Shown here: piece after piece, positions 4,070 to 56,220 of the stretch
Layout of the letters: the number at the start of each line of letters is the position of its first letter
Numbering within the stretch: position 1 is the first letter of the stretch
Source: an uncultured Rikenella sp.
GTDB taxonomy: Bacteria > Bacteroidota > Bacteroidia > Bacteroidales > VadinHA17
DNA length: 64,000 nucleotides
Reading direction: 5' to 3'
Assembly (NCBI GenBank): GCA_964470815.1
Contig: CAYYEH010000005.1
Span: 6,073-70,072 of the forward strand
Notes under the pieces: generated by a model
Database searches by the model: none
Seen by the model: the letters and a program-made list of their open reading frames with translations, nothing else
What the model was told of the DNA's origin: nothing
Position numbers and translations under genes: made by a program

Positions 4070-4072
4070 ATT

Positions 4073-8959: not shown

Positions 8960-9017
8960 GTGTAACTTTCCGGCAGTGATGCTCGTCACAGCATTAAACA
9001 ACAAAAATTTTCAATCC

Positions 9018-10025
9018 ATGAAAAGAATACTGATTTCATCCGCACTGATCGTTTCCATGCTCTTACCCTCAATGGCGCAGGAGAAGGAACAGAAACTAAA
9101 GGAGCTTGAACAGCTTGAACAGCAGACAGAAAAGACCACCCTGCCGGACACCCTGGTTGCCATTGAAGAGGACCTGGAGGCATTGAATGAGCCTGAAGAG
9201 GACCTGGCAGCCATTGAGGAAAAAGAAGGCGATACCTCCCGGGTAAAAATCGGTGAAGTTGTTACCATTGAGGATACAGGTGACGAAACCGTTATCAGGA
9301 TCGGCAAGAAAGCCGTCAAGGTGATCAGCGAGAATGACAATACGGAGGTCAGGATTGAGGAGGATCTAACCTATTCAGGACACAGCCGCAAGCGTTTCAG
9401 GGGCCACCTGGGCGGCCCGGAGCTGGGATTCAACAGCTTTTCAACCGGCAGATGGCTGAACAATGATGTTCCCCTTGAAGGTTATCTTGACCTCAACACG
9501 GCCAAATCAACCTGCTTCAATTTTGTCTTTCCTCCGGTAAACCTCGGTTTCACAAGTCATTTCGGAATTGTTACCGGACTGGGCATAAATTTTAACAACT
9601 ACCGTTTTGACGGAAACAATACCATCGTGGTTGACGGTGAAGGAAATATCACACCTGCCTTACCAGCAGAACCGATACGGTATGAAAAGAGCAAGCTGGC
9701 TACCGTTTACGGGTTCATTCCGGTAATGCTGGAGGTACAGATTCCCGTTTCATACGGAAGCGCCATCAACCTCGGTGCGGGAGTAATCGGGGCAGTAAAA
9801 CTGGGATCGCATACAAAGGTTGTCTACTACGATGACGGGAAACAGAAAGACAAAAACCGTGACGACTTCAACCTCAACGTCCTGAGGTACGGCGTCACCG
9901 CCAGGGCGGGATACGAGATGGTTCAGGTGTACGGCACCTGCTACCTGTCGCCCATGTTCGAGAAAGGCAAGGGACCTGAACTCTATCCCTTCGAGATAGG
10001 CATTGCCCTGACTTTCAACGACTGA
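9018..10025 (+). CDS. Outer-membrane beta-barrel-like protein with acidic N-terminal region
   Basis: The signal peptide MKRILISSALIVSMLLPSMAQE starts at the ATG at 9018 (the track start 8976 adds 14 unlikely residues). An E/D-rich segment follows, then alternating beta-strand-like sequence ending in ...IGIALTFND. Confidence 0.55.
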   Translation: MKRILISSALIVSMLLPSMAQEKEQKLKELEQLEQQTEKTTLPDTLVAIEEDLEALNEPEEDLAAIEEKEGDTSRVKIGEVVTIEDTGDETVIRIGKKAVKVISENDNTEVRIEEDLTYSGHSRKRFRGHLGGPELGFNSFSTGRWLNNDVPLEGYLDLNTAKSTCFNFVFPPVNLGFTSHFGIVTGLGINFNNYRFDGNNTIVVDGEGNITPALPAEPIRYEKSKLATVYGFIPVMLEVQIPVSYGSAINLGAGVIGAVKLGSHTKVVYYDDGKQKDKNRDDFNLNVLRYGVTARAGYEMVQVYGTCYLSPMFEKGKGPELYPFEIGIALTFND

Positions 10026-10050
10026 CAGGCCGGATTAACAGGTTTTCTGT

Positions 10051-10086
10051 GAGAGGGTGTTCGCAATAATGCCCTCTCTTTTTTTA
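10051..10086 (+). terminator. Rho-independent terminator
   Basis: GAGAGGG (10051-10057) / CCCTCTC (10072-10078) stem followed by T8 (10079-10086). It lies 26 nt after the stop at 10025. Confidence 0.65.
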
Positions 10087-10146
10087 TTTATCTTCCTGGC
10101 ACAAACCGGTCTGTCGGCTTACTGTACAAAATCGGGTGATTTTATG

Positions 10147-10154
10147 TAAGTTTG
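10147..10154 (+). promoter_or_regulatory. Bacteroidota -7 promoter box candidate
   Basis: TAAGTTTG is an exact TAnnTTTG match, 68 nt upstream of the pepE ATG. Confidence 0.3.
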
Positions 10155-10221
10155 GGACGTTGAAACAGTGGAACGGGAGTCATGATTCTGACCCTGTAAA
10201 ACAATTAATAACCAGAGAGAA

Positions 10222-10941
10222 ATGAGACTACTTCTTATCAGCAATTCAACAAATGCCGGGGAGGCATATCTCGATTATCCGAAGAACAATATCAGGGATT
10301 TCCTGGGAAGCAGGAAGGTAAAGGCCCTTTTCATCCCCTATGCAGCAGTAACATTTTCATATGATGCGTATGAGGAGAAGGTTAAAAGCCGCTTTAACGA
10401 GGTGGGGCATGATGTTGTCTCCATCCATCGTTTCAGGGATCCGGTAAAAGCTGTCATGGAGGCACCGGCAATTGTTGTCGGAGGAGGCAACACATGGATG
10501 CTTCTCAGGTGCCTCAGGGAGAACAAACTGATTGACCCGGTAAGAAAAAAGGTTCTTGGCGGTACCCCCTACATCGGCTGGAGTGCAGGTTCAAACGTGA
10601 CATGCCCGACAATAATGACCACCAATGACATGCCTGTCACCATGCCCTCATCACCGAAAGCCTTCGGACTGATCCCATTCCAGATCAATCCTCATTACCT
10701 CGATGCCAATCCCCAGGGTCATGCAGGTGAGACGCGGGAACAGAGGATTGAGGAATTCATCGCCGTAAACAGGGAGGTTTTTGTTGCAGGGCTGCGCGAG
10801 GGGACAATGTTCCTTCTGGAAAACAGGAAGCTGTCACTCATCGGTCCGCGCAACGCACGCATCTTCAGGTATGGCAGCCAGCCACTGGAGATGCAGCCCG
10901 GAGCGGACCTCTCCTTCCTGCTGAAAAAAGCCGGGAAATAA
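10222..10941 (+). CDS. pepE: Dipeptidase E (peptidase S51)
   Basis: MRLLLISNSTNAGEAYLDY..., GGGNTWMLL, and GWSAGSNV (nucleophile Ser context). Confidence 0.9.
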   Translation: MRLLLISNSTNAGEAYLDYPKNNIRDFLGSRKVKALFIPYAAVTFSYDAYEEKVKSRFNEVGHDVVSIHRFRDPVKAVMEAPAIVVGGGNTWMLLRCLRENKLIDPVRKKVLGGTPYIGWSAGSNVTCPTIMTTNDMPVTMPSSPKAFGLIPFQINPHYLDANPQGHAGETREQRIEEFIAVNREVFVAGLREGTMFLLENRKLSLIGPRNARIFRYGSQPLEMQPGADLSFLLKKAGK

Positions 10942-10962
10942 TCAACTGCGCCTTAAGGGGCT

Positions 10963-23594: not shown

Positions 23595-24929
23595 CTACAT
23601 CCCTCCTATCTGCATTTCAGCCACCCTGAAGGTGGGTGCGGCAAATGACCGGTTCATGTCAATGTCATTGCCCATCATGTCAATTCCGTTGAGGATGGCA
23701 TCGCCGCTTCCCGCGATTGTCAGTCCATCAACCGGATAGAGAATCTCCCCCTTTTCGATCCAGAACCCTGATGCGCCGCCGCTAAAGTTGCCGCTGACGG
23801 CGTCTATGCCATACCCGGTAACCCCGCTGAGAAGCAGTCCCCTGTCAGTGGCAGCGATGATCTCACTGCGGCTCTGCTTTCCTGTTTCAAGTGAAAGATG
23901 GTGTGTGCCGATGCCGGGCAGTGAGGTGTAGCCGTTTCTGGCGGCGTTGCCTGTGCTGACGGTTCCCGCCCTGCGGGCGGCAATAGTATTGTACACGAAC
24001 CCGCTGACGACTCCCTTATCAACCAGGATTCGTCTCTGTGTAGGAACACCCTCTCCGTCAAACGGGGCTGCGCCCATGGAGCGTGCCCTGGTGCCGTCGT
24101 CAATGATGGTCAGCAGTGGTGAAGCAAACTGTTTACCCATCGAATGGGCCAGGAAGCTGGCACCCTGAATCACCCTTTCGCCATTGAGGGCTGTTATGAC
24201 ACCGCGCAACAATGACCCGGCAACATCGGGGTCAAAGATCACTGAGGCTTTCTGCGTCTTCACCATTCGCGGATCAAGCATCTCCCAGGCTTTGCGAGCC
24301 GCTTTAGCAGCTATCTGGTCCGGCGGTGTGAGGTCACCGAAGAAACGGCGTGTGCTGTATTCACCTCCTGTCTTCTTCTGCTCTCCCTTCTCAGCCACCA
24401 CACTCACACCAAGAGAGCATCCGGATGCCTTGTAGCTGGCTGCTCTGCCTGACGAGCTGGCAATAAATACTTCAAAAACACTTTCACCGTAGGATGAACC
24501 AGAACTCTTGGTTATCCTGCCGTCACTCATCGCCATTTTTTCGAGCTCCAGGGCCATGGCTATCTTCCGGTCAAGGGCTATCCCCGCGATTTCGGGGTCA
24601 AAAAGATCCTGCACGGCGGTTTCTCCGATCAGTTCCGGCAGAACATTGCTCTCATCCGGGGTGGTGAGCCTGGCGAACTTAACCGCCATGGCAATAGTGT
24701 CGTCCAGGGCTTTCATCTCCAGGCTGTTGCTGTAGCTGAAGCCAAGCGATCCTCCGGCGATGACACGTATTCCCACTCCTGCTGAATCGGCCTCTTCAAT
24801 GGTTTCGATCTCACCGTTAAGGATGTTAACCGACAGGTTTCGTCCGGCAGATATGTATATTTCAGCTGCATCTGCCCCTGCTTTGAGGGCTTTGGATACA
24901 AGTTTCTCTGCAAGTGATAGATAATTCAT
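23595..24929 (-). CDS. pmbA: PmbA/TldE family metalloprotease subunit (no signal peptide)
   Basis: 444 aa with a TldD/PmbA fold (GVGIRVIAGGSLGFSYSN...; C-terminal GNFSGGASGFWIEKGE). The N-terminus MNYLSLAEKLVSKALKAG has no export signal. Confidence 0.85.
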   Translation of the reverse strand: MNYLSLAEKLVSKALKAGADAAEIYISAGRNLSVNILNGEIETIEEADSAGVGIRVIAGGSLGFSYSNSLEMKALDDTIAMAVKFARLTTPDESNVLPELIGETAVQDLFDPEIAGIALDRKIAMALELEKMAMSDGRITKSSGSSYGESVFEVFIASSSGRAASYKASGCSLGVSVVAEKGEQKKTGGEYSTRRFFGDLTPPDQIAAKAARKAWEMLDPRMVKTQKASVIFDPDVAGSLLRGVITALNGERVIQGASFLAHSMGKQFASPLLTIIDDGTRARSMGAAPFDGEGVPTQRRILVDKGVVSGFVYNTIAARRAGTVSTGNAARNGYTSLPGIGTHHLSLETGKQSRSEIIAATDRGLLLSGVTGYGIDAVSGNFSGGASGFWIEKGEILYPVDGLTIAGSGDAILNGIDMMGNDIDMNRSFAAPTFRVAEMQIGGM

Positions 24930-35366: not shown

Positions 35367-35759
35367 ATGAAAAAAAGGGCGGCATCATTCAAAAAAAGTG
35401 AAAGACTCTGCAGTGTGAAAGCCATCAGCGAACTCTTTGCCGAAGGCCGTACCATCAACATATCATCACTCAGGATCTTGTACCGTATCAGGCCCGTCAC
35501 CGGCGGAGTGATGCCCGTAAGGGTGCTGATAACGGTTCCCCGGCGTCATTTCAAGAAAGCCGTTGACCGCAACCTGATGAGGAGGAGGCTACGGGAAGCA
35601 TGGAGGAAAAACAAGGAGCCGCTCTTCGCCCTCATGAAGGAAAAAGGTCGCACAGCTGATATTGCATTAATCTGGACAGATATTATGATCAGGCCGTATG
35701 ATTACACCGAAAAATGTATTAAGGAAGCAATTGCGAGGGTGTCAGGGCTTAAATATTAA
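35367..35759 (+). CDS. rnpA: Ribonuclease P protein component
   Basis: Basic 130-aa protein with FKKSERLCSVKAISELF and NLMRRRLREAWR (RNR-like motif). Confidence 0.8.
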   Translation: MKKRAASFKKSERLCSVKAISELFAEGRTINISSLRILYRIRPVTGGVMPVRVLITVPRRHFKKAVDRNLMRRRLREAWRKNKEPLFALMKEKGRTADIALIWTDIMIRPYDYTEKCIKEAIARVSGLKY

Positions 35760-43933: not shown

Positions 43934-44034
43934 TCAACAGTTGTTTTTTCGGGCAGTAAACCGGCAACCTGCTGCAGGGGAACATTTTGTTCTGCATTTT
44001 GTCATTTTTTTGGTATTTTTACCTGTTCCAGGGA

Positions 44035-45009
44035 ATGGCAGGACTATCAGACATAAAGAAACCGGTGGCAGCAGAAATGCGCGATTTTGAAGCATACTTC
44101 AGACGCACACTTCACAGCGACATACCCTTCTTTCATGTTATCCTGAACAATTTCCTGCGCCGCAAAGGGAAGCAGATGAGACCCCTCCTGGTCTTTCTCA
44201 CTGCCAGGCTCAACGGAACGGTGAATGAAACCACATTTGTTGCCGCCACCTTCATTGAACTGCTGCACACCGCTACCCTTGTCCATGACGATGTGGTCGA
44301 CGATGCCTCGGAAAGACGCGGACTGCCGACTATCAATGTGCTTTATAACTCAAAAATAGCCGTGCTTGTGGGCGACTACCTCCTGGCCCAGGGACTGCTT
44401 ATCAGCGTTGAAAAGCAAAGATTCAACATGCTGGGCATCGTCTCAGATGCGGTAAGGGAGATAGTGAAGGGAGAGCTGGTTCAGCTTCAGAAAACACGCA
44501 AACTGGACATCAGGGAAGAAGACTACTTCCGCATCATCAGAATGAAGACCGCTGCCCTGATTTCAGCATGCACTGCGTGCGGTGCAAGCTCGGTTACCGA
44601 TGACCCGGTTATTATTGCCAGGATGAAGGAACTGGGGGAAAACATCGGCGTTGCATTCCAGATAAAGGATGACCTGCTGGACTATACCGGCGACGGACTG
44701 ACAGGGAAAAGAGAAGGCAATGACATCAAGGAGAAGAAAATCACCCTCCCGCTGATACATGCACTCAGGGAGGCCGGGCCCCTTGAAAGGCGCCATATCA
44801 TCAGGCTGCTGAGAAGAAAAAAGAAGGGAACCAGGGAAATCAGGGAAGTGATTGAGTTTGTGAAAAAACACAAGGGGCTTGAGTATGCCGAATCAAAGAT
44901 GCAGGAATACTCTGACAGGGCAATCCGGATCCTGGAAGAGTACCCTGACTCGGAAACAAAATCAGCATTGATCGAATTTGTAATTTTTTCAACACTCAGA
45001 AGAAAATGA
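44035..45009 (+). CDS. Polyprenyl diphosphate synthase (trans-IPPS, long-chain type)
   Basis: The first and second Asp-rich motifs are LVHDDVVDD and FQIKDDLLDY. ATG 44035 is preferred over TTG 43987. Confidence 0.85.
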   Translation: MAGLSDIKKPVAAEMRDFEAYFRRTLHSDIPFFHVILNNFLRRKGKQMRPLLVFLTARLNGTVNETTFVAATFIELLHTATLVHDDVVDDASERRGLPTINVLYNSKIAVLVGDYLLAQGLLISVEKQRFNMLGIVSDAVREIVKGELVQLQKTRKLDIREEDYFRIIRMKTAALISACTACGASSVTDDPVIIARMKELGENIGVAFQIKDDLLDYTGDGLTGKREGNDIKEKKITLPLIHALREAGPLERRHIIRLLRRKKKGTREIREVIEFVKKHKGLEYAESKMQEYSDRAIRILEEYPDSETKSALIEFVIFSTLRRK

Positions 45010-45446
45010 AAGATGTAAGCCGCTTTCTCACGCTGGGCACCTATGCCATAGCCGGTGTCTCAAGAGATCCCAAGAAGTTCGGGCAGGTCATATTCAGAGA
45101 CCTGCGTAAAAAAGGGATGGATGTGGTACCCGTCAATCCCGCCGCCGAAACCATCGACGGAGTCAGATGCTACAGTTCAGTCCGGGAACTGCCGGAAAGT
45201 ATCAGGGGGGTCATATTCATGACACCAAAGGAGGAGACCCTCTCAGTGGCAAAGGAGGCAATTGCCCATGGAATTAAAGATCTATGGATACAGCAGGGTG
45301 CAGAAACAAAACAGACAATTGCCGAACTCGAAAAAGAAGATGTCAACCTGATCCACAACCAGTGCATCATGATGTACTGGAAACCGAACGGGATCCATTC
45401 ATTTCACCGTTTCCTGAAGAAAATCTTCGGTGGACTGCCCGCCTGA
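45006..45446 (+). CDS. CoA-binding domain protein
   Basis: YAIAGVSRDPKKFG...VVPVNP is a typical CoA_binding_2 N-terminus. It has a 4-nt overlap with the upstream gene. Confidence 0.75.
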   Translation: MKDVSRFLTLGTYAIAGVSRDPKKFGQVIFRDLRKKGMDVVPVNPAAETIDGVRCYSSVRELPESIRGVIFMTPKEETLSVAKEAIAHGIKDLWIQQGAETKQTIAELEKEDVNLIHNQCIMMYWKPNGIHSFHRFLKKIFGGLPA

Positions 45447-45539: not shown

Positions 45540-45555
45540 TGTTCCACGTGGAAAG
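45540..45555. other. parS-like ParB-binding site (14/16 palindromic)
   Basis: TGTTCCACGTGGAAAG. Its first 14 nt are identical to the site at 49376. It is intergenic, 3 nt beyond the uvrC stop. Confidence 0.6.
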
Positions 45556-45558
45556 AAA

Positions 45559-47358
45559 TCATTTTTTCAGGGCCGCGGCCAGAATTGAGGCTTTTTTAGT
45601 GCCAACTACCTTTTCAAGCTCCTCCGTTGATGTTTCAGATAGTTTTCTGACTGAACCGAATTTCTTCAGGAGCAGTTCCTTTGTCTTCTCTCCTATCCCG
45701 GGGATATCATCAAGCAGAGACCGCTTCATGCCGGAACTCCTTTTTCCCCTGTGGAATTTAATCCCGAACCTGTGGGCTTCGTTCCGTATCTGCTGTATTA
45801 TTTTCAGTGTAATACTGTTTTTATCAAGATATAGCGGAACGGAATCGCCCGGGAAATATATCTCTTCCAGCTTTTTTGCTATACCTACAACCGTCAGCCG
45901 TCCCCTGATCCCTAGTTTTTCGAGGCTTCTGACTGCAGAGGAGAGCTGACCCTTGCCACCATCAATAACCACAAGCTGAGGCAGCGGATTGTTTTCATCA
46001 AGCATTCTCCGGTACCGGCGGTATATGACCTCCTCCATCGACGCAAAATCGTCAGGACCGGTGACCGTCCTGATGTTGAAATGACGGTATTCCCTGTTGC
46101 TGGGCTTCCCATTCCGGAATACAACACAGGCCGCCACGGCAGATTGTCCCTGGATATTGGAGTTGTCAAAGCATTCAATATGAACCGGCAGAGCTGGCAT
46201 ATGAAGGTCTTTCTTCATTTTCTCAAGGTTCTTTTCGGTTCTGTTTTCCCTTGATTTTTCCGGGACCTTCTTCTCTCTCTCTATCCTGAAAAAGACCGCG
46301 TTGCGATTAGCCAGCTCAAGCAGTTTATGCCTGTCGCCTCGGCGGGGAACGACGTACTTTACCCTATTAAGCTTTATATCAGGCATAAACGGAACAATAA
46401 CCTCCGGGGAATCACTTGAGACCCTCTGTCTTATTTCTGTAACAGCAGTGGAAAGCAATGATTCCTTCTCTTCTTCCATGCGCATCTTCAGTTCAACTGA
46501 CCAGGACTGAACTATGGCTCCGGCAACCACCTTCATGTAGCTGACATACATCGAGACCCCTTCAACCGAGCAGCCGAATACATCCACATTACGTACGGAT
46601 GTGTTCACAACCACGGATTTGCTGCGGTATCTGGAAAGCATTTCCAGCTTTTCCTTAATCTTCTGAGCCTCCTCATACTTCAGCTCTGCAGCGAATTTTT
46701 TCATGAGAGATTCAAGGTAGGCGGTTACACCGCTTATATCACCCTTTATGATCTCTTTTATTCTGTCTGTCTGCCGGTTATACTCATCTTCGCTGATCAG
46801 GCCTATGCACGGGGCCTTGCAGTTACCCATGTGATACTCAAGGCATACCTTGAACCTGCCTTCGGATATCGCCTTTACTGAGAGCGGCAGGGAGCAGGTT
46901 CTGATCTGAAAAAGGTGGCGTATGAGCTCCAGGAGAGTTCTGACCGCCGGCACCGAAGTATAGGGGCCGAAATAGGAAGAGCCGTCAGCGACCAGCTTAC
47001 GGGTCATGAAAACCCGTGGAAAATGCTCATTCTTAACGCATATCCAGGGATATGTCTTGTCGTCCTTGAGCATTATGTTATACCTGGGCTGATGCTTTTT
47101 GATGAGGCTGTTTTCAAGAAGAAGGGCTTCAGATTCATTGTCAACCACGATATGTCGGAGGTCAGCGGCACGGGAGAGCATTACCTGTGTCTTGCCTGAC
47201 TGGTTCTTTGAGAAGTATGAGGCGACACGTTTCCTCAGGCTGCGGGCTTTGCCGACATAGAGGATCGACCCTGAAGCGTCAATGAACTGGTAGACACCAG
47301 GTTTGTCAGGCAGTGCTGACACCGAGGCTTTTATGTTCTCCCTGTCTGACATATGCAA
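45559..47358 (-). CDS. uvrC: Excinuclease ABC subunit C
   Basis: GIY-YIG N-terminus (GVYQFIDASGSILYVGKA), a UvrBC domain, and a C-terminal HhH. The track start 47358 is a TTG, and an ATG two codons downstream (47352) is an alternative. Confidence 0.95.
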   Translation of the reverse strand: MHMSDRENIKASVSALPDKPGVYQFIDASGSILYVGKARSLRKRVASYFSKNQSGKTQVMLSRAADLRHIVVDNESEALLLENSLIKKHQPRYNIMLKDDKTYPWICVKNEHFPRVFMTRKLVADGSSYFGPYTSVPAVRTLLELIRHLFQIRTCSLPLSVKAISEGRFKVCLEYHMGNCKAPCIGLISEDEYNRQTDRIKEIIKGDISGVTAYLESLMKKFAAELKYEEAQKIKEKLEMLSRYRSKSVVVNTSVRNVDVFGCSVEGVSMYVSYMKVVAGAIVQSWSVELKMRMEEEKESLLSTAVTEIRQRVSSDSPEVIVPFMPDIKLNRVKYVVPRRGDRHKLLELANRNAVFFRIEREKKVPEKSRENRTEKNLEKMKKDLHMPALPVHIECFDNSNIQGQSAVAACVVFRNGKPSNREYRHFNIRTVTGPDDFASMEEVIYRRYRRMLDENNPLPQLVVIDGGKGQLSSAVRSLEKLGIRGRLTVVGIAKKLEEIYFPGDSVPLYLDKNSITLKIIQQIRNEAHRFGIKFHRGKRSSGMKRSLLDDIPGIGEKTKELLLKKFGSVRKLSETSTEELEKVVGTKKASILAAALKK

Positions 47359-47393
47359 TTATTGACAGCCGTTAAGGAGGGCACGGCTATTTG

Positions 47394-47401
47394 CAAAGTT
47401 A
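47394..47401 (-). promoter_or_regulatory. Bacteroidota -7 promoter box candidate for uvrC
   Basis: The minus-strand TAACTTTG (plus-strand CAAAGTTA) is an exact TAnnTTTG match, ~36 nt upstream of the uvrC start. Confidence 0.3.
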
Positions 47402-47524
47402 AAAATTATGGCATGAGTAGGGCAAGGGCATCGAAGGAGTGTGAACTGACTCACTGCTATATATTTGATTACTTGGCATTTAGTGAATGCCCGGGTATTC
47501 TTCTGCGGCTTAGCAAGATACAAT

Positions 47525-47701
47525 CACTGCCCCTCGGGATAAACTTATAGCGGCCTGAGCCTGACGGGGTAAACCTGTGCAGGCCTGGGCCTGACTGGGT
47601 AAGATCAGGCCTTCATTTGCCTTACGGGTTAACTTGTACCGGCCTGAGCCTGAAGGGATAAACCAGCTCCTGCCTGCGTCTCACGTGGTAAGCCGGTAGC
47701 G
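47525..47701. repeat. Array of six degenerate direct repeats phased at 30 bp
   Basis: The core GGGnTAA(A/G)C recurs with its TAA at 47540, 47570, 47600, 47630, 47659 and 47689. Three units start with GGCCTG(A/G)GCCTGA. See the finding. Confidence 0.6.
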
Positions 47702-47714
47702 GTGATGACCAGCT

Positions 47715-49358
47715 TTATTTGCGGTATTTGAGGTAAGGATCGGGGACGAACAACGGAATATGGCGGAATGCTACTCCGTCAAATAATCCCCTGTCGCTCA
47801 TTTTCAGTTTTGGTATTACCAGCAGAGCCATGAACGAGAGGGTCATAAAGGGGGCATCAAGAACGGACCCCAGGGCCTTAACTGTTTCAGAGAGTTTTTC
47901 ATAGCGTGAAGCCATCGCTGTTACAGGCAGATCTGACATGATCCCTGCCACAGGCAGTTTAAGGATTTCCGCACCGTCGTCAGAAGCTACAGACATACCT
48001 CCTCCGGCATCGATCAGCAGGTTGATTGCAGTTACAATGTCACGGTCATTTGTGCCTACTGCAATTATGTTGTGACTGTCATGTGCCACAGAAGATGCCA
48101 TTGCTCCCCTCTTTAGTCCGAATCCCTTTATGAATCCGACAGCCGGAGGTTTGTCATTATATCTTTCCTTGACGACAATTTTAAGTAGGTCCTCTTCGGG
48201 TCTGGGCAATACAAATTCATTCTCTCCTGCCCGGATTATTTCCGCATCTGTAGTCAGTTCTCCGTTAACAGCTACGATTACATTGATTTTCCCGCCCTCG
48301 TTTATCACCCTTAGTTCATCCTGGAGAAGCCGTGTGCATTTGAATTTATTGATTTTTATTATTTCACCCGGGGTAAAGAGGGTTTTATCGCCATCATAAA
48401 CGCACCGGCCGTCAATCCAGGTTTGAATGACGTTCATTTCGGAAGGGTCGTCAACAATTATGAAATCTGCAGGGTCTCCCGGTTTGAGTGTTCCGGCACC
48501 GATATGGTAATGGTCAAAGGTATTCAGGGTGGCTGCCCTGATCACGTCAAACATATCATAACCCATAATGATGAGGCGTGCAACCAGCCTGTTTATATGT
48601 CCTTTCAGCAGCGTTTCCGGGTGGAGGTCGTCAGTGCATAGCATCACTTCGCCCGGGTAATATGTCAGCAGTGGTGCGAGTGTCTCCAGGTTTTTTGCGG
48701 CACTTCCTTCGCGGATGAGGATTTTCATTCCGCCTGAAATTTTCTCAAGAGCTTCTTCAATGGAAGTGCATTCATGATCTGTAGTAATACCAGATCCGAT
48801 ATATTTTTTCAGCTCAGCGCCTGTCAGGCCGGGAGCATGTCCGTCAATCGGAACACCGGCATCCCTGGCAGCTTCAAGTTTGCTGTGAACCTCGGCATCG
48901 TCATAGATAACGCCGGGGAAGTTCATCATCTCAGCGAGGAATTTAACTCTCCCTTCATTAAGCATTTCCCTGATTTCTGCAGGATTAATTTTTGCTCCTG
49001 CGCTTTCTGATGATGTAGCCGGCACGCAGGAAGGAGCTCCGAAAACGATCTTTAACGGTACTTTGTCAGCGTTGTCAAGCATGAATTTTACTCCTTCCCT
49101 GCCGAGTACGTTGGCTATCTCATGCGGATCAGCAACAACTGTTACCGTTCCATGCCTTACTGCAGCGACAGCAAAATGAGACGGCACAAGCATGCTGCTC
49201 TCAATATGAACATGAGCATCTGCTAACCCGGGCATGATGTAATTCCCGGGGCTATTATCGGTTTCAACCACCGACTCTATCTTCCCGGCCGATATGGTAA
49301 CAACCCCGGGATAAATGCGCCTCTTGTGCACATCAATAATTTTACCAGCAATATTCAT
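47715..49358 (-). CDS. ade: Adenine deaminase
   Basis: PGLADAHVHIESSML and the amidohydrolase fold, at 547 aa, typical of Ade. Confidence 0.9.
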   Translation of the reverse strand: MNIAGKIIDVHKRRIYPGVVTISAGKIESVVETDNSPGNYIMPGLADAHVHIESSMLVPSHFAVAAVRHGTVTVVADPHEIANVLGREGVKFMLDNADKVPLKIVFGAPSCVPATSSESAGAKINPAEIREMLNEGRVKFLAEMMNFPGVIYDDAEVHSKLEAARDAGVPIDGHAPGLTGAELKKYIGSGITTDHECTSIEEALEKISGGMKILIREGSAAKNLETLAPLLTYYPGEVMLCTDDLHPETLLKGHINRLVARLIIMGYDMFDVIRAATLNTFDHYHIGAGTLKPGDPADFIIVDDPSEMNVIQTWIDGRCVYDGDKTLFTPGEIIKINKFKCTRLLQDELRVINEGGKINVIVAVNGELTTDAEIIRAGENEFVLPRPEEDLLKIVVKERYNDKPPAVGFIKGFGLKRGAMASSVAHDSHNIIAVGTNDRDIVTAINLLIDAGGGMSVASDDGAEILKLPVAGIMSDLPVTAMASRYEKLSETVKALGSVLDAPFMTLSFMALLVIPKLKMSDRGLFDGVAFRHIPLFVPDPYLKYRK

Positions 49359-49375
49359 AATATTTATTGAAAAAA

Positions 49376-49391
49376 TGTTCCACGTGGAACA
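49376..49391. other. parS ParB-binding site (perfect 16-bp palindrome)
   Basis: TGTTCCACGTGGAACA. The half-site TGTTCCAC equals the left half of the classical B. subtilis parS TGTTCCACGTGAAACA. It lies in the 40-bp gap between the mnmG stop and the ade start. Confidence 0.75.
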
Positions 49392-49398
49392 CCTAATA

Positions 49399-51273
49399 TT
49401 ATCTGCCGAGATACATTATAAGAATTGAAACATCAGACGATGACACCCCGCTGATGCGTGAAGCCTGGCCAATGGTTGCAGGCTTGATTTTTGACAGCTT
49501 CTGCCTCCCTTCGGTTGATATTGAAGTCAGTTCGTCATAAACAATCTCGTCCGGTATCTTCAGATTTTCCAGTCGCTTGATCTTTTCAGCTATGCCTCTT
49601 TCTCTATCCAGGTAACCAGAATACTTGATCCTGATTTCAGCAGTTTCAATAATCTCAGTCTTTCTTTCGGAACTGAAGCAATCCAGTTTATCGCTTCCGG
49701 GAATTATACTTAGCAGCTCCTCAAGCTCTATCTGTGGTCTTGCTGCAATACTTACAGCCTTAATCTTCTGGGTTATTTCCGAGGTGCCCTTCTCTTTAAG
49801 AAACCTGTTAATTTCTGTTGGTGAAATACTCCGACTTTTAAGAAAGGCTATAATCTCCTCTGCCATCCTGTACTTTTCTTCCAGTCTTATAACTCTCTCC
49901 TTCGTGGCCGTGCCAAGATCCCTGGCCCGCGGTGTCAGTCTTTCATCCGCATTGTCCTGCCGAAGCAGAATTCTGTACTCAGCCCTGGAAGTAAACATCC
50001 TGTATGGTTCATCCACACCTTTTGTAACCAGGTCATCGATGAGTACACCTATATAAGCCTCATCACGTTTGAGTATAAACGGATGTCCTCCCCTTATCCT
50101 GAGCACTGCGTTAATGCCGGCCAGGAGCCCCTGGGCTGCTGCCTCCTCATAACCGGTAGTTCCGTTAATCTGTCCTGCAAAGAAGAGTCCTGAAACCCTC
50201 TTCGTCTCAAGCGAGTGTTTAAGTTGTGTCGGCTGAAAAAAATCATACTCGATGGCATATCCGGGGCGATAGATAACAACATTTTCAAGCCCTCTGATTT
50301 CCCTTAAAGCACCTAACTGCGATTCGAGTTTAAGACTGCTGGCAAACCCATTGATGTAGTACTCATTAGTATCCCATCCTTCCGGCTCCAGGAAAAGCTG
50401 ATGAGATTCCTTTCCTGCAAAGGTAACGATTTTGTCTTCCACACTGGGGCAGTACCGCGGACCCCTGCCCTTTATCCTTCCGGTAAAGAGCGGAGAAAAC
50501 TCGAGTCCTTTCCTGAGTACCTCGTGTGCTCTCTCATTTGTGTGGGTTATATAACAGCTTCTTTCGTCCTGTATGTCTATCCTGTCGTGAAGATATGAAA
50601 AGCATCGCCCGTCTCCGTCACCTTTCTGTTCGGTCATGGCTGCAAAACCGATACTTCTACCGTCCACTCTAGCGCTTGTACCAGTCTTCAGCCTTTCGAC
50701 CTCAAAACCCAGATCCCTCAGCTGATCGCTTATTCCCCTGGAAGCCGGATCCCCTGACCTTCCGCCGGCCATAGTATTGAATCCGACATGCATAAGGCCG
50801 TTCAGAAATGTTCCGTTTGTAAGTATAACAGCATCCGCCCTGAATTCTGTTCCGAATGTTGTCCGTACTCCCCTTACGGAACCCTGTTCTATTATGAGTT
50901 CACTAGCCTGCTCCTGCCATATCCCAAGGTTCGTGGTTTCTTCCAGGACCTTTCTCCATTCTCTGCTGAACAGCATCCGGTCACATTGAGCCCGTGGACT
51001 CCACATTGCAGGTCCTTTGCTTCGGTTCAGCATTCTGAACTGGATCATCGTCCGGTCAGTGATTAAGCCAGATACTCCGCCCAGCGCATCTATCTCTCTG
51101 ATTATCTGCCCCTTGGCTATGCCTCCCATAGCCGGATTACAGGACATCTGGGCAAGTTTTGTCATATCCATCGTGACAAGGAGTGTCTTCGCTCCCATTA
51201 CGGCAGCAATATGCGCAGCCTCACAGCCGGCATGTCCCCCGCCAACCACAATTATATCATACCTGAAGTTCAT
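49399..51273 (-). CDS. mnmG: tRNA uridine 5-carboxymethylaminomethyl modification enzyme
   Basis: [16 protein letters not shown] and full-length GidA homology over 624 aa. Confidence 0.95.
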
Positions 51274-51692
51274 TCGGCATATGATAAGGCCAGATACATT
51301 TCTTCCAACTCAGACATTTTCTTCTTCTCCCCTTCTGTTCTGTCATCATAGCCACATAAATGGAGGAAACCATGGAAAATAACCCTTCTCATTTCAGCAG
51401 ATGGCGAAACTCCATACTCACCTGAATTTTCTCTTACCCTGGTTTCACTTATGTATATTTCACCGTTAACGGTGTTTCCCTTGTTATAATTGAAAGTTAT
51501 TATATCAGTATAATAATCATGTCCCAGGAATTCAGAGTTTATCTCATAAACCTTTTCATCGCTGGTTATAATAACATCAATCTTTCCGGCTTTCATTCCG
51601 GCATCTGAAATAATTCTTCCTATTACCTTTTTGATTTTCCTGCTGTCGCGCAGTCTGAAATTTTCAATATCGTAATGGAAGCCTACTTTCAA
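51270..51692 (-). CDS. ybeY: rRNA maturation RNase YbeY
   Basis: The [11 protein letters not shown] zinc motif. It has a 4-nt overlap with mnmG. Confidence 0.9.
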
Positions 51693-51696
51693 TTTT

Positions 51697-52089
51697 TCAG
51701 TATTTGAATCTCATTTTTACCTGGTTTCCGGAGTCATTGTACTCTATTACATCCGCCAGGCTCCTCATAATAAACACTCCGCGTCCGTGAAGGTTCTCAA
51801 TATTTTCCGGATCCGTAGGGTCCGGCAGGTTATTATATTCAAAGCCATCACCCTCATCCGTAACTGTTACTTCGAACAAATTCCCGTCTGAAGTGAAATT
51901 CACAGTGACCATTTTTTCAGCATTACCTTTGTTTCCGTGAAGAATTGCGTTGTTGACCGCCTCAACAGTAGATATCAGTATCTTTCCGTACACCTCATCA
52001 GAGATGCCAAGTTTCTTCGATAACGTATCTACCAGCGTCTCTACAACCCGCAGTTTTTCAATGTCTGAATTTATAGTAATGCTTTCCAT
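51697..52089 (-). CDS. Small GHKL ATPase, RsbW/SpoIIAB-like anti-sigma-factor-type kinase
   Basis: 130 aa with VEAVNNAILHGN (N-box), VTDEGDGF (G1) and GRGVFIM (G2-like). Confidence 0.7.
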   Translation of the reverse strand: MESITINSDIEKLRVVETLVDTLSKKLGISDEVYGKILISTVEAVNNAILHGNKGNAEKMVTVNFTSDGNLFEVTVTDEGDGFEYNNLPDPTDPENIENLHGRGVFIMRSLADVIEYNDSGNQVKMRFKY

Positions 52090-52146
52090 TCCTGATTCCC
52101 TATCACTTTTATAACTGACAGGGTATTTATTTGTTGCAAAATTTAG

Positions 52147-53328
52147 TCATTTTTTTATAAGCCACTGCTCCGGGTCAAGCTTTTTCTTTTCCTCATATAC
52201 CATAAACTTCAGGACAGATTTTCCACCATCTCCGTTATCCATGTAAACATCTCCGATTTCCTGGCCCAGGGTTACGCTGTCACCTGCCTTTAGCTTCACG
52301 TTGACCAGGTTCTGATAAACCGTAAGGTATTTGCCATGTCTGATGATGACAGCCATATTTGCACCTGAAATTGCAAAGACGCGAACCACTTCCCCCTTGA
52401 AAACCGATCTTGCTTTAGTTTGTCCGACTGAAGTTATTTCTATGCCTATATTATCTTCGGTAACATTCTTTAGCACAGGATGCGGTTGCAGGCCGAAATG
52501 ACCGGTTATGATTCCTTTGTCAACAGGCCATGGAAGTCTTCCCTTATTCTCACCAAAAGAATCCCCGATCACCTTCATCTCCCTGCTCATGGGAACAGTT
52601 TCGCTTTTCTTTCTCTCCTCCTCAATGAGTTTCTCAATCTCCTTTTCAATCTGTCGTGCGATTCTCCTCTTTTCGTCAAGTTCCTGTTTCAACTGCTTTT
52701 CCTTTCTGCTGAGTGTGGTTACAAGCCTTTCCTTCCGGTTCTGTTCCTGGCTCAGCATCTGCTTCTGCCTTACCTCCTTGTTTTTAAGGTCGTTTACATT
52801 TCTCCTGTCCTTCTCAAGCCTTTCCTTCGTGCTCCGGAGTTCATTGTACAAAGTCTCAATTGTTTCTGTCTCCTTTCTCCTGTATTTGGCAACCTGTTGT
52901 ATATATTTAAGCCTCTTGTAACCCTGGTTAAAGTCAGAAGAGGAGAGGATAAACGCCAGCGCAGGCGTTCCCTTGGTAGCCTTGTAGGCACTAATAATTG
53001 ACCGTGCATACTCACTCTTCAGTTCATTTAGGTCCTGTTCAAGCATTTCCGTAGCCAGGCTGTTCAGGCTGATTCTGTATTCAAGGAGGCTAATCTCCTG
53101 CCCGTATTCATTAATAAGTCTCTCTCTCAGGTTCAACTTGCGGCCGATGACCCTGAGTTCATTGATGTTCTCATTTTTCTGGGTTGCTGTAGCTTTCAGC
53201 ATCCGGTCAACATATTCTATCTCCTGCAGGTTTTTTCTCCTCATCTCCTCCAGCTCTGCCCGTGATTGTCCTTCCAGGGCACATGCGAAAAACAATGCAA
53301 AAACCAATATGAGATAGCCTTTTTTCAC
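52147..53328 (-). CDS. EnvC-like murein hydrolase activator (coiled coil plus degenerate LytM/M23 domain)
   Basis: Signal peptide, then ~230 aa of heptad-rich E/K/R sequence. The C-terminal LytM fold has NIGIEI in place of HxxxD and VLKFMVYE in place of HxH, so the catalytic ligands are lost as in EnvC/NlpD. The start is a GTG at 53328. Confidence 0.8.
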   Translation of the reverse strand: MKKGYLILVFALFFACALEGQSRAELEEMRRKNLQEIEYVDRMLKATATQKNENINELRVIGRKLNLRERLINEYGQEISLLEYRISLNSLATEMLEQDLNELKSEYARSIISAYKATKGTPALAFILSSSDFNQGYKRLKYIQQVAKYRRKETETIETLYNELRSTKERLEKDRRNVNDLKNKEVRQKQMLSQEQNRKERLVTTLSRKEKQLKQELDEKRRIARQIEKEIEKLIEEERKKSETVPMSREMKVIGDSFGENKGRLPWPVDKGIITGHFGLQPHPVLKNVTEDNIGIEITSVGQTKARSVFKGEVVRVFAISGANMAVIIRHGKYLTVYQNLVNVKLKAGDSVTLGQEIGDVYMDNGDGGKSVLKFMVYEEKKKLDPEQWLIKK

Positions 53329-54089
53329 AATGATTCCCTCCTGTATGACGGCAGGTTGAATTCGATATCAGAATCGTACCCGAATATCAAATCATCAATA
53401 TTTAGTTTCACGTGAAACATTCTTTCCCTCTCATTCATTTCTATTACCGTCGGATACCTTATTCCACCGTTTGTGCCAAATTCACTAAATGTAATATAAA
53501 TCTCATGTCCTGAATATATTGCATCAATTGTTTCATTGCAAATCTTCATTTGGTCAATACAGATTGAAATATCCCTTCTGAAGCTATCATCTCCGGCTTC
53601 GACAATAAGCCGTCTGTTTTCGGTGTAAGTGTAATTACGGATATTTCCGGCAGGCATATCTCCGAAAATTACCTTCATGAAGTCTTCCGGCAGGCCGTTC
53701 TTCTTCAGTATTGCATCCTTCTTTCCAACATAAACAGTTTTGTTGAATCTGTCAATGGCTGCGATGTCATTTCCGACCATTAAAAGCCTGACAAGCTCAA
53801 TACCCAATGGTCCGCGAACGGATCCATAAAAGTCTCCGCGCCTGTTAAGCCTAGCATGCAGGCCAAACTTTCCTTCAATTTCAGTTCCCCGCAGTTCTAT
53901 TGTGCCTTTTCGTATCTCAAAGCCCTTCCCGGTAATATTATTTTCTATAACATCCGAAATGACAGCTTCATAGTTGAACCTCCCGGGTTCAGATAGTGTT
54001 TCTGTTGCCCTGCCTTTCCGAAGGGCCGAGCATCCGGCCATAACAGTCACCATAAAAAGCAGGCTGCAGTATTTTATTATTTTGTACAT
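53325..54089 (-). CDS. Lipoprotein, DUF4292-like (LolB-fold-like)
   Basis: Lipobox VMAGCS. It sits between the TPR lipoprotein and the M23 gene, the conserved Bacteroidota order as I recall it. Confidence 0.6.
   Translation of the reverse strand: MYKIIKYCSLLFMVTVMAGCSALRKGRATETLSEPGRFNYEAVISDVIENNITGKGFEIRKGTIELRGTEIEGKFGLHARLNRRGDFYGSVRGPLGIELVRLLMVGNDIAAIDRFNKTVYVGKKDAILKKNGLPEDFMKVIFGDMPAGNIRNYTYTENRRLIVEAGDDSFRRDISICIDQMKICNETIDAIYSGHEIYITFSEFGTNGGIRYPTVIEMNERERMFHVKLNIDDLIFGYDSDIEFNLPSYRRESL
53404..53419. other. parS-like ParB-binding site (15/16 to consensus), intragenic
   Basis: AGTTTCACGTGAAACA against the cross-phylum consensus TGTTTCACGTGAAACA. It contains the 14-bp perfect palindrome GTTTCACGTGAAAC and lies inside the DUF4292-like CDS. 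Confidence 0.7.
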
Positions 54090-55789
54090 CTTTTAATCTC
54101 CTCTTCCAGATATGACTTTGTTTCATCTGCTTCAAGGGCCCGATTCCAGTACAAAACCGCCTCATCGCATCTGCCAATGGCCTTCTTTATATACCCCATG
54201 TGCTCAAGCAGTTCAGGATCCTGTCCTTCACCATTCTCAAATATCCTCGACATAACACGGTGCGCTTCCCTGAACTTTCCAAGCCTGTAAAGCACCCATG
54301 CATAAGTATCTATGTACGTCGGATTGTCACCTTCAATAGCCATAACCCTCTCCGCCATTTTTAGCGCCTTCTTCAGGTCTGTATTTCCTTCCGCAAGAAA
54401 GTAGGCATAGTTGTTAAGCAGCAACGGGTCATCAGGCGTTATTGCAAGAGCTTCCTCATATATTGCATATGATCCGGAGAAATCCTTCATACGGTATTTC
54501 AGGTCACCCATCATAGAAAGAACCTGCACTTTCATCTGCTCATCATTTCCAGCCAGTATAAGTGCCTTTCGGAGTTCAGCATCAGCTACTTCATATTCTT
54601 TCAGCTCCATCGCGGCTATGGCATAATAAACCTTTCCCAGGATGCTCCTGTTGTTTTCCCTGGAATAAAGCGATGCCAGGTCATACATTTTCCGGTACTC
54701 CCTGGATTCAGCATAAAGTACCAGCAATCGCTCCTTAAACCAGAATCCCTGCTTTACTTCTTTTATTATTTCTTCATTTCTTCTGATTGCAAGCTCAGTC
54801 ATCCCTGCCCTTTCATAAACCCCTGGCCTTAGAGACATCACCTCCTCATCGCCAGGGTACTTATTTTCCAGTAGGAGAAGTGTTTCTGCCAGCGACCCTG
54901 CATTGCCCGCTATATATGCACTGTCACCGGCAAGCCTTTGTGAGATTGCTATCTTTCTTTCTCTATCAACTACATCACTTTCGAAAACCCTTTGAAGAAA
55001 AACAGATACTCCGGAATACTCCTGACGGTAAACAAGGCTCATCAGATACATAAGCTGGGTTTCAATATCATCAGGATTACTTTCAATTATCTTACGGTAT
55101 ATACTGTCACTTTTCTCCCTTTCTCCGTCTTCATAATATATATCTGCCAGCAGGGCGTTATACCTTGTTTCCTGAGGATACTGGTCAATAAGCCTTATGG
55201 TTCTTTCAGCTGCTTCTTTAAAATTGCCCTTGTTTATAATCCCATATATCATCATAAGTGACATATCAGGAGTGAGTGTTCCTTCACTGTCAAGTATCCG
55301 AAACAGTGAGTCGGCTTTTTCGGTTTCACCCTTTTCAGCAAAGAGACCAGCCAGGATCCCGTTTACTTCCACGGCCCGGTTGTCAGCCTTCAGTGCCCGT
55401 TGAAAATAGACAATGGCTGAATCTTTCAATTCATATTGGGTAAACAGGGATCCGCATGCCAGCTGAAACCAGTAGTTACCCGGCTCAAGCCTTGCGGCTG
55501 TTGTAGCGTACTTAAGCGATTTACCACTCATTCCGGCAGCTGAGTACATCTGTGCAAGCTCGAACCATGGCACAGCGTGGGTCTGGTCAAGCTCAATGCA
55601 CTTTTCGAACAGGGTTGCCGCCTCATTCAAATCGCCAACGTATTTCTGCCTCAGTGCCTCCGAAAGGATATAGTCATACCTGTTGTCTGTTCTCCTTTCG
55701 CTGCCTCTTTCAAACGCAGGTGAGATGATTTTCCTTGAGCATCCCGCCGCCACCAGCAGGAGCAAGAACAATATGATGCCTCTTTTCAT
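54077..55789 (-). CDS. Tetratricopeptide-repeat lipoprotein
   Basis: Lipobox VAAGCS and multiple TPR units across 570 aa. Confidence 0.8.
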
Positions 55790-56220
55790 CTTCTCCCGGA
55801 ATGTCCGAATCCTCCTTCTCCCCTGACTGTGGAGTCAATCACCTCGGTATGTACAAGTTCTGCTTTTTCATGACGGGCTACAATCATCTGTGCTATCCGG
55901 TCCCCGTCATTGACGGTAAATTCTTTCTCCGACAGGTTTATAAGAATAACTCCTATTTCGCCCCTGTAGTCAGCATCTATTGTACCGGGAGAATTAAGGA
56001 CGGTGATTCCGTGTTTGAGTGAGAGGCCGCTTCTTGGCCTCACCTGGGCCTCGTATCCCTCCGGCAACTCAATATACAGTCCTGTAGGTATCAGCCTTCG
56101 CTCCATCGGCCTGAGGGTGACCGGCCCGCCGGTGAAGGCACGCAGGTCCATACCGGCCGAATGCGCAGTTTCATATGCGGGCAGCGGATGTGATGATTTG
56201 TTTACTATCCTGATTTTCAT
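55786..56220 (-). CDS. dut: dUTP diphosphatase
   Basis: [25 protein letters not shown], and [10 protein letters not shown]. Confidence 0.95.

What the first reader, a model, noticed from the sequence alone, without database searches (positions are those of the whole stretch)
45540..53419. Three unannotated parS centromere sites bracketing mnmG: an origin-proximal partition locus
Three 16-mers match the ParB-binding parS consensus tGTTNCACGTGAAACa. (a) 49376-49391 is TGTTCCACGTGGAACA, a perfect palindrome built from the TGTTCCAC half-site of the classical B. subtilis parS. (b) 45540-45555 is TGTTCCACGTGGAAAG, whose first 14 nt are identical to (a). (c) 53404-53419 is AGTTTCACGTGAAACA, 15/16 to the consensus, inside the DUF4292-like CDS. 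Three such sites within 7.9 kb cannot be chance, since a specific 16-mer with one or two mismatches is expected far less than once per 64 kb. parS sites cluster near oriC in most bacteria. mnmG (gidA) and rnpA, classical origin-proximal markers, are both in this window. No parA/parB, dnaA or obvious DnaA-box cluster is present here.
Basis: partly seen in the sequence, partly recalled or inferred. Interest (0 to 1): 0.65.

Follow-up and report, generated by a model that had tools for sequence, protein, structure and literature searches.

The report
Conserved parS centromere sites beside mnmG
Three short palindromes around the mnmG gene of this Rikenellaceae-like Bacteroidales genome are very probably binding sites (parS) for the chromosome-partition protein ParB; this is an ordinary kind of element, but its main copy sits beside mnmG across most of the phylum.

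Summary
All three 16-mers are at the stated coordinates. Shuffled sequence gives 0.17 matches with two or fewer mismatches per window, and 0.01 with one or fewer.

The parS reading is well supported for site (a), 49376-49391. It lies 7 nt after the mnmG stop codon. In 70 of 80 Bacteroidota mnmG loci a parS with one or fewer mismatches lies within 250 bp of an mnmG end. That is 2.2 sites per kb there, against 0.015 per kb elsewhere.

Site (b), 3 nt after the uvrC stop, is the only conserved block of its intergenic region in the two closest relatives. One of its half-sites is degenerate. Site (c) has a perfect 14-bp core but is absent from those relatives, so it is a lineage-specific extra site or, less likely, chance.

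The variable positions of the two half-sites assort independently. This fits a dimeric protein reading two half-sites, not a hairpin.

The claim "origin-proximal" is not shown. The window has no parAB, no dnaA, no DnaA-box cluster and no change of skew sign. Support is indirect: Cytophagales relatives carry a DnaA-box cluster 1.6-3 kb from mnmG, and published Bacteroides Hi-C places the parS cluster at ori.

This is a new member of a known kind, of modest interest.

The parts
49376..49391 (.). parS site (a), the anchor: the perfect palindrome TGTTCCACGTGGAACA. It lies 7 nt after the mnmG stop codon and 17 nt before the ade start codon.
   Evidence: Searches give the sequence and coordinates. 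A parS with one or fewer mismatches lies within 250 bp of an mnmG end in 70 of 80 Bacteroidota loci, and in about half of the downstream cases it starts about 10 nt or less after the stop.
45540..45555 (.). parS site (b), a satellite: TGTTCCACGTGGAAAG, with one perfect half-site. In the other half the outer TG is replaced (CTTTCCAC on the minus strand). It lies 3 nt after the uvrC stop, in the intergenic region where uvrC and the CoA-binding-protein gene converge.
   Evidence: Searches give the sequence. TTTCCACGTGGAACA is invariant in the window, L001 and L008, while the rest of that intergenic region has diverged. The counterparts are at L001:15766 and L008:15874.
53404..53419 (.). parS site (c), a satellite specific to this lineage: AGTTTCACGTGAAACA, with the perfect 14-bp core GTTTCACGTGAAAC. 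It lies inside the LolB1/DUF4292-like CDS, where it encodes MFHVKL.
   Evidence: Searches give the sequence and an expectation of 0.01 hits with one or fewer mismatches per window. It is not conserved in L001 or L008.
49399..51273 (-). mnmG (gidA), the gene to which the anchor parS is linked across the phylum.
   Evidence: TIGR00136 E 1.9e-241. The gene order ybeY-mnmG-(ade)-uvrC is conserved in Bacteroidales loci.
49370..49394 (-). Optional secondary feature. On the mnmG sense strand, site (a) with its flanks can form a 9-bp RNA hairpin followed by UUUUUU, which resembles an intrinsic terminator.
   Evidence: The fold is -9.3 kcal/mol with z = -2.6. A T-run follows the site in only 9 of 70 downstream sites in relatives.

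Best explanation
The three 16-mers form a cluster of chromosomal parS sites, the centromere-like loading sites of the ParB CTPase. Site (a) is the ancestral anchor that the phylum Bacteroidota keeps directly beside mnmG. Sites (b) and (c) are satellite sites 3.8 and 4.0 kb on either side of it.

Inferred mechanism, taken from the established ParABS model in B. subtilis, Caulobacter and Myxococcus (reviews PMC7022226 and PMC7333895):
- A ParB dimer reads the two half-sites through its helix-turn-helix domains.
- parS binding triggers CTP-dependent closure of the clamp.
- The clamps slide out over the flanking kilobases, here roughly from the lolB1-like gene to uvrC, and build one partition complex.
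- ParA moves that complex to segregate the sister chromosomes.

What is shown here: the match to the consensus, its statistical excess, the clustering, the conservation of site (a) across the phylum and of site (b) within the family, and the independent variation of the two half-sites. What is inferred: ParB binding itself, spreading, the role in segregation and proximity to the origin. Whether a condensin is loaded at these sites is open, because no known condensin homolog was found in the two Bacteroidetes studied by Hi-C (PMC10197239).
For: - Exact or near-exact matches to TGTTNCACGTGNAACA lie at the three coordinates. Chance expectation is 0.17 for two or fewer mismatches and 0.01 for one or fewer.
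- Across the 80 mnmG loci from Bacteroidota genomes there are 116 hits with one or fewer mismatches. Of these, 94 fall in the 42.4 kb within about 250 bp of mnmG ends (2.2 per kb). The other 22 fall in the remaining 1.457 Mb (0.015 per kb). 70 of the 80 loci have such a site.
- The position shifts between orders while the sequence stays the same. The site follows the mnmG stop in Bacteroidales and lies between ybeY and mnmG in Cytophagales and Flavobacteriales.
- Site (b) is the only conserved intergenic block among the window, L001 and L008.
Extra sites therefore gather repeatedly near the anchor, as (b) and (c) do here.
- The variable positions 5 and 12 assort independently: both halves C-type in 50 sites, both T-type in 14, mixed in 47, against 51.3, 13.0 and 51.7 expected. 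A hairpin would require them to covary.
- Published work reports ParABS homologs in Bacteroides caecimuris and Muribaculum intestinale. The B. caecimuris parS cluster sits at the ori end of the secondary Hi-C diagonal (PMC10197239). Functional parS sites in S. pneumoniae and M. smegmatis share only the 14-bp core that site (c) has (PMC7022226).
Against: - No ParB gene could be examined for this genome. None is in the window or within 10 kb of mnmG in any relative.
- There are no binding data.
- Site (c) is not conserved in the two closest relatives.
- Site (b) lacks the G at position 2 of one half-site. From memory of Jalal et al. 2020, this base helps determine specificity, so (b) may bind weakly.
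- Origin proximity is untested. The window contains no DnaA-box cluster and no skew switch.
Confidence: 0.82

Rival explanations
1. The palindromes are RNA hairpins that act as intrinsic transcription terminators for mnmG and uvrC, because sites (a) and (b) lie 7 nt and 3 nt after stop codons. On this reading they are not protein-binding centromere sites.
For: On the mnmG sense strand, site (a) with its flanks folds into a 9-bp hairpin (-9.3 kcal/mol, z -2.6) followed by U6. The closest relatives L001, L002, L004 and L008 also have a T-run, and some extend the palindrome to 22-24 bp.
Against: Terminators conserve structure, not sequence, yet here the same 16-mer persists across orders of a phylum. 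Positions 5 and 12 do not covary, and 29 of 116 sites carry a C/A mismatch in the would-be stem. Only 9 of 70 downstream sites are followed by TTTT. In Cytophagales the site lies upstream of mnmG. Sites (b) and (c) show no significant fold (z -0.3 and -0.1). The ade start codon follows site (a) by only 17 nt, which suggests read-through. A secondary terminator role for site (a) alone in this lineage remains possible, at roughly 0.25.
Confidence: 0.04
2. The sites are operators of some other dimeric DNA-binding protein that recognises a CACGTG core. This could be a transcription factor or a ParB paralog such as a Noc-like protein that regulates mnmG, ade or uvrC.
For: Sites (a) and (b) sit at gene boundaries. 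ParB-family paralogs with changed specificity exist in other phyla (Noc; from established knowledge).
Against: All 16 positions, not only the core, match the pan-bacterial parS consensus. The allowed variation (C or T at position 5) is exactly that of known parS sites (PMC7022226). The Noc site ATTTCCCGGGAAAT differs at the positions that are invariant here. CACGTG-core octamers outside the three sites do not share the flanking sequence.
Confidence: 0.05
3. Only site (a) is functional. Site (c), and perhaps site (b), are chance or decaying look-alikes.
For: Site (c) is absent from L001 and L008, where the orthologous codons differ. Site (b) has two mismatches, both in one half-site.
Against: A hit with one or fewer mismatches is expected 0.01 times per 64 kb, and site (c) lies 4 kb from the anchor. 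Site (b) is invariant over 15 nt in three genomes whose surrounding intergenic sequence has diverged. Relatives repeatedly carry extra sites within a few kb of the anchor.
Confidence: 0.15

Closest known systems
Bacillus subtilis parS / Spo0J (ParB) sites, consensus TGTTNCACGTGAAACA
   Same: Both are the same 16-bp palindrome and allow the same C/T variation at position 5. Both form multi-site clusters, lie within or at the ends of genes, and include sites with 1-2 mismatches.
   Different: In B. subtilis the sites surround oriC and the mnmG-rsmG-noc-soj-spo0J block, and one site lies inside spo0J. Here no parAB, dnaA or DnaA-box cluster lies within the 64-kb window, or within 10 kb of mnmG in 80 relatives. 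Binding has not been tested here.
Pseudomonas aeruginosa parS1-4 cluster near oriC and the gidAB-parAB locus (PMC4368675, PMC13438810)
   Same: Both are a small cluster of parS sites spread over a few kb and linked to the gidA/mnmG neighbourhood. In P. aeruginosa one strong site is sufficient and the others are auxiliary.
   Different: In P. aeruginosa the cluster overlaps oriC and gidAB-parAB form one operon. In this phylum mnmG is separated from parAB.
Streptococcus pneumoniae and Mycobacterium smegmatis parS (AGTTTCACGTGAAACT; GTTTCACGTGAAAC; Table 1 of PMC7022226)
   Same: Site (c), AGTTTCACGTGAAACA, shares their perfect 14-bp core and a variable outer base.
   Different: Those sites have been validated by ChIP or genetics, and site (c) has not. 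Site (c) is also not conserved in the nearest relatives.
Predicted parS clusters in Bacteroides caecimuris and Muribaculum intestinale (Hi-C study, PMC10197239)
   Same: They are from the same order and were predicted with the same consensus. In B. caecimuris the cluster marks the ori end of the secondary diagonal.
   Different: That study does not report the link to mnmG or conservation across the phylum, and it lists no coordinates.
Rho-independent terminators
   Same: Site (a) is a stem-loop followed by a U-tract directly after a stop codon.
   Different: Here the sequence is conserved, not the structure, and there is no covariation. A U-tract is present in a minority of relatives.

Membership tests
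Chromosomal parS (ParB-binding centromere-like site) | A 16-bp palindrome matching TGTTNCACGTGNAACA, or at least the 14-bp core GTTNCACGTGNAAC | tested here: met
   Site (a) matches all 14 specified positions, site (c) matches 13 of 14 with a perfect 14-bp core, and site (b) matches 12 of 14 with one perfect half-site.
Chromosomal parS (ParB-binding centromere-like site) | Occurs more often than chance and is clustered | tested here: met
   There are 4 hits against 0.17 expected with two or fewer mismatches, and 2 against 0.01 with one or fewer. Three of the hits lie within 7.9 kb, and the other 56 kb has no hit with one or fewer mismatches.
Chromosomal parS (ParB-binding centromere-like site) | Conserved at the orthologous position in related genomes while the flanking sequence diverges | tested here: met
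   Met for site (a) in 70 of 80 loci. Met for site (b) in L001 and L008. Not met for site (c).
Chromosomal parS (ParB-binding centromere-like site) | A cognate ParB (ParB_N plus HTH_ParB) encoded in the same genome | not testable with these tools
   There is no ParB in the window or within 10 kb of mnmG in 80 relatives (tblastn with B. subtilis Spo0J; the query was validated against Pfam). The rest of the genome was not available. ParABS homologs are reported for other Bacteroidales (PMC10197239).
Chromosomal parS (ParB-binding centromere-like site) | Located in the origin-proximal part of the chromosome | tested here: inconclusive
   The window has 5 DnaA boxes against 15.6 expected and no cluster. 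The replication component of the skew is weakly negative throughout and does not flip. Cytophagales relatives have 6-11 DnaA boxes in an intergenic gap of about 450 bp, 1.6-3 kb from mnmG. No such cluster lies within 10 kb in Bacteroidales loci.
Chromosomal parS (ParB-binding centromere-like site) | Bound by ParB in vivo or in vitro, with CTP-dependent spreading | not testable with these tools
   This needs ChIP-seq, or EMSA or BLI with the cognate ParB.
Intrinsic (Rho-independent) terminator | A stable GC-containing stem-loop directly followed by a U-tract, with the structure (not the sequence) conserved and compensatory changes in the stem | tested here: not met
   Site (a) has a hairpin of -9.3 kcal/mol followed by U6. 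However, only 9 of 70 sites in relatives have a T-run, and positions 5 and 12 assort independently, with frequent C/A mismatches. Sites (b) and (c) do not fold significantly. The consensus terminator scan did not list any of the three sites.
oriC (replication origin) | A cluster of DnaA boxes in an AT-rich intergenic region, usually with a GC-skew switch | tested here: not met
   The largest nearby gap, 47359-47714, is not AT-rich and holds unrelated repeats of about 30 nt.

The most novel reading that the evidence does not exclude
The parS beside mnmG may be the ancestral, phylum-wide centromere anchor of Bacteroidota. On this reading it stayed within about 10-250 bp of mnmG after rsmG, parAB and dnaA, and in Bacteroidales also the DnaA-box origin, moved away. 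The centromere would then be uncoupled from the par operon, and possibly from oriC, by tens of kilobases or more. In the Rikenellaceae lineage the same palindrome may also serve as the mnmG terminator. If so, mnmG would be a one-gene marker for the centromere in any Bacteroidota MAG. The clade would also be a natural test of whether parS needs to lie next to oriC, in bacteria that seem to lack known condensins.
Probability: 0.3. Interest if true: 0.5.

Novelty: new member of a known kind. Interest (0 to 1): 0.35.

Why it matters
parS sites are seldom annotated, yet they mark the chromosome's centromere and usually its origin region. For this genome the locus gives the probable site where ParB loads. 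The comparative result, a parS next to mnmG in 70 of 80 Bacteroidota species sampled, offers a simple rule for locating the centromere in Bacteroidota genomes and MAGs. ParABS has hardly been studied experimentally in this phylum: the 2020 review PMC7022226 never mentions Bacteroidetes. The origin there does not always coincide with dnaA, and no known condensin homolog was found in the two species examined by Hi-C (PMC10197239). The element itself is of a well-known kind, so the gain is incremental.

Tried and rejected
- Looking up the exact mnmG protein in public assemblies found nothing, so the source genome could not be retrieved. A whole-genome parS scan, a ParB search and a genome-wide GC skew were therefore impossible.
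- Livny et al. 2007 (PMC2168934), the reference survey of parS, is not held in the library. I could not check whether it lists mnmG-adjacent sites in Bacteroidetes.
- Five literature searches found no paper describing a link between mnmG and parS in Bacteroidota. The supplement of the Hi-C paper gives no parS coordinates.
- tblastn with B. subtilis Spo0J, Soj and DnaA found no ParB or DnaA in the window or the 80 loci. It found only two weak ParA-like hits, in L018 and L066. Spo0J and DnaA were then confirmed as family members by Pfam; Soj was not checked.
- Rfam and tRNA scans of the window found nothing.
- The consensus terminator scan did not flag any of the three sites.
- Half-site heptamers GTTYCAC are not enriched in the window beyond those inside the three sites: 19 found against 14.4 expected.
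- The hairpin or terminator reading was rejected as the primary explanation.
- The repeat-rich gap between ade and uvrC was considered as a possible origin and rejected: it has no DnaA boxes, is not AT-rich and is not conserved.
Full report
**Observation**

All three 16-mers are present exactly as described:
- Site (a), 49376-49391, TGTTCCACGTGGAACA.
- Site (b), 45540-45555, TGTTCCACGTGGAAAG.
- Site (c), 53404-53419, AGTTTCACGTGAAACA.

A scan for TGTTNCACGTGNAACA with two or fewer mismatches returns these three plus one weak hit, 23883 TGTTTCAAGTGAAAGA, which breaks the central CG. Dinucleotide-preserving shuffles give 0.17 hits per window, and none of 100 shuffles had 4 or more. With one or fewer mismatches there are 2 hits against 0.01 expected. 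Allowing three mismatches adds no further hits. The three sites span 7.9 kb, and the other 56 kb has no hit with one or fewer mismatches.

**Context**

NCBIfam and Pfam scans give the following map, from the plus-strand genes on the left to the long minus-strand run.

| Coordinates | Strand | Gene or family |
|---|---|---|
| 43987-45009 | + | polyprenyl synthase |
| 45006-45446 | + | CoA-binding protein |
| 45559-47358 | - | uvrC |
| 47715-49358 | - | ade |
| 49399-51273 | - | mnmG |
| 51270-51692 | - | ybeY |
| 51697-52089 | - | RsbW-like kinase |
| 52147-53328 | - | M23 peptidase |
| 53325-54089 | - | LolB1/DUF4292-like |
| 54077-55789 | - | TPR protein |
| 55786-56220 | - | dut |

- Site (a) lies 7 nt after the mnmG stop codon and 17 nt before the ade start codon.
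- Site (b) lies 3 nt after the uvrC stop, in a convergent intergenic region.
- Site (c) lies inside the LolB1-like CDS, where it encodes MFHVKL.
- rnpA is at 35367-35759.
- No parA, parB or dnaA is in the window.
- The nearest mnmG relatives are Rikenellaceae MAGs, at 84% and 81% amino-acid identity. The window therefore comes from a Rikenellaceae-like member of the Bacteroidales.

**Comparative evidence**

I fetched 80 mnmG loci with up to 10 kb of flank on each side, each from a different species-level genome of Bacteroidota, and scanned them.

- Position. A parS with one or fewer mismatches lies within 250 bp of an mnmG end in 70 of the 80 loci. Of 116 such hits, 94 fall in the 42.4 kb next to mnmG ends (2.2 per kb). 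The other 22 fall in the remaining 1.457 Mb (0.015 per kb).
- Bacteroidales. The site follows the mnmG stop, and in about half of the cases it starts about 10 nt or less after it.
- Cytophagales and Flavobacteriales. The site lies between ybeY and mnmG.
- Saprospiraceae and Chitinophagaceae. These loci lack the site.

The same 16-mer is therefore kept beside the same gene across orders, while its exact position and its flanks change. This is the pattern expected of a protein-binding site.

The 22 distal hits are about a hundred times my chance estimate of roughly 0.2. Most lie within a few kb of the anchor. Extra sites thus arise repeatedly around it, as sites (b) and (c) do here.

- Site (b). 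L001 and L008 share the whole gene order from dut to the polyprenyl synthase. In both, TTTCCACGTGGAACA lies 3 nt after the uvrC stop. It is the only invariant block of that intergenic region.
- Site (c). It is not conserved: the orthologous codons in L001 and L008 differ at many positions. It is either a recent gain or a coincidence. The 0.01-per-window expectation and the 4-kb distance from the anchor favour a real site.

**Hairpin or protein site**

On the mnmG sense strand, site (a) and its flanks fold into a 9-bp hairpin (-9.3 kcal/mol, z -2.6) followed by U6. The closest relatives also show T-runs and extended palindromes.

Three results argue against a hairpin as the selected feature:
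- Across all relatives, only 9 of 70 downstream sites are followed by TTTT.
- Sites (b) and (c) do not fold significantly.
- The two variable positions, 5 and 12, assort independently. Both halves are C-type in 50 sites, both T-type in 14, and mixed in 47, against 51.3, 13.0 and 51.7 expected. Among the mixed sites, 29 have a C/A combination that would break a stem.

Selection therefore acts on two independent half-sites, as expected for a dimeric helix-turn-helix protein. A secondary terminator role for site (a) in this lineage remains possible.

**Origin proximity**

The window gives no direct evidence for an origin:
- It has 5 DnaA boxes with one or fewer mismatches, against 15.6 expected, and they are not clustered.
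- The gene-orientation-corrected GC skew is weakly negative throughout and does not change sign.
- tblastn with B. subtilis Spo0J and DnaA finds nothing in the window or in any of the 80 loci.

Indirect support does exist:
- Cytophagales loci L027, L039, L047, L072, L074 and L077 have 6-11 DnaA boxes. In the two loci whose ORFs I listed, L039 and L072, the cluster fills an intergenic gap of about 450 bp, 1.6-2.6 kb downstream of mnmG; box positions in the other four lie up to about 3 kb from it. There the mnmG parS is within about 5 kb of a candidate oriC.
- A Hi-C study found ParABS homologs in Bacteroides caecimuris and Muribaculum intestinale. It placed the B. caecimuris parS cluster at the ori end of the secondary diagonal.
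- The same study noted that ori does not always coincide with dnaA. It found no known condensin homolog in these two species (PMC10197239).

**Mechanism**

The best-supported reading is a three-site parS cluster that nucleates one ParB-CTP partition complex over roughly the lolB1-like gene to uvrC. Site (a) is the strong, ancestral site.

Site (b) is probably weaker. One of its half-sites lacks the G at position 2, which I recall from Jalal et al. 2020 as a specificity determinant; this was not checked here. Site (c) has the perfect 14-bp core that is sufficient in S. pneumoniae and M. smegmatis (Table 1 of PMC7022226).

ParB binding, spreading, ParA-driven segregation and any condensin loading are inferred from the established model, not shown here.

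**Novelty and verdict**

parS sites and their consensus have been known since the B. subtilis work and the 2007 survey by Livny et al., which I could not read. Consensus-based parS prediction has already been applied to Bacteroidales (PMC10197239). The element is a new member of a known kind.

In the literature I could search, I found no description of the phylum-wide link to mnmG without a nearby parAB. That is a useful but incremental comparative observation. Interest is 0.35.

Noticed in passing
window 47359-47714 (repeats at about 47524-47692): The 356-bp gap between ade and uvrC holds 3-5 degenerate direct repeats of about 30 nt, with the core GGCCTGRGCCTGA followed by GGG[GA]TAAAC. Three exact cores are present against 0.27 expected. 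The gap is not conserved in sequence in L001 or L008, which carry different repeats of their own at the same place. The function is unknown. It is not AT-rich and has no DnaA boxes.
   Followed up: partly
window about 47391-47398, minus strand; L001 and L008 upstream of uvrC: A TAnnTTTG motif (TAACTTTG), resembling the Bacteroidetes -7 promoter element, is conserved just upstream of uvrC in the window and both close relatives. This suggests uvrC has its own promoter.
   Followed up: no
L002:12740, L005:12232, L009:14090, L044:12218: In several other Bacteroidales a perfect parS lies inside the ade coding sequence about 197 nt from its start, encoding AV[S/P]RGT. The Ser/Pro difference corresponds to the free N position of parS. 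The window's ade has GCA GTA AGG CAT GGA ACG there, which is not a parS.
   Followed up: partly
L039:13496-13894, L047:14508-15034, L072:14423-14753, L074:14446-15000, L077:14516-14890, L027:14340-14828: These Cytophagales loci have 6-11 DnaA boxes each (one or fewer mismatches) downstream of mnmG. In L039 and L072, the two checked, the cluster fills an intergenic gap of about 450 bp 1.6-2.6 kb from mnmG. These are candidate oriC regions within about 5 kb of the mnmG-linked parS.
   Followed up: partly
window 49400-55800: The genes from mnmG to the TPR protein have an unusually strong strand composition bias. GC skew is -0.18 to -0.27 on the plus strand, meaning a purine-rich coding strand, against about -0.05 for other minus-strand genes in the window.
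   Followed up: no
window 23883-23898: This is a fourth, weak parS-like hit, TGTTTCAAGTGAAAGA, with 2 mismatches including the central CG. It lies inside a PmbA/TldD-like gene and is probably chance.
   Followed up: no
window 7452-13566: An ECF-type sigma factor (7452-7937) is followed by three large ORFs with no Pfam match at E <= 1e-6: 7928-8959, 8976-10025 and 10963-13566 (867 aa).
   Followed up: no
window 1985-4507: A BlaI-like repressor (4073-4507) is paired with a BlaR1/M56-like protein that has a TonB_C domain at its C-terminus (1985-4069).
   Followed up: no
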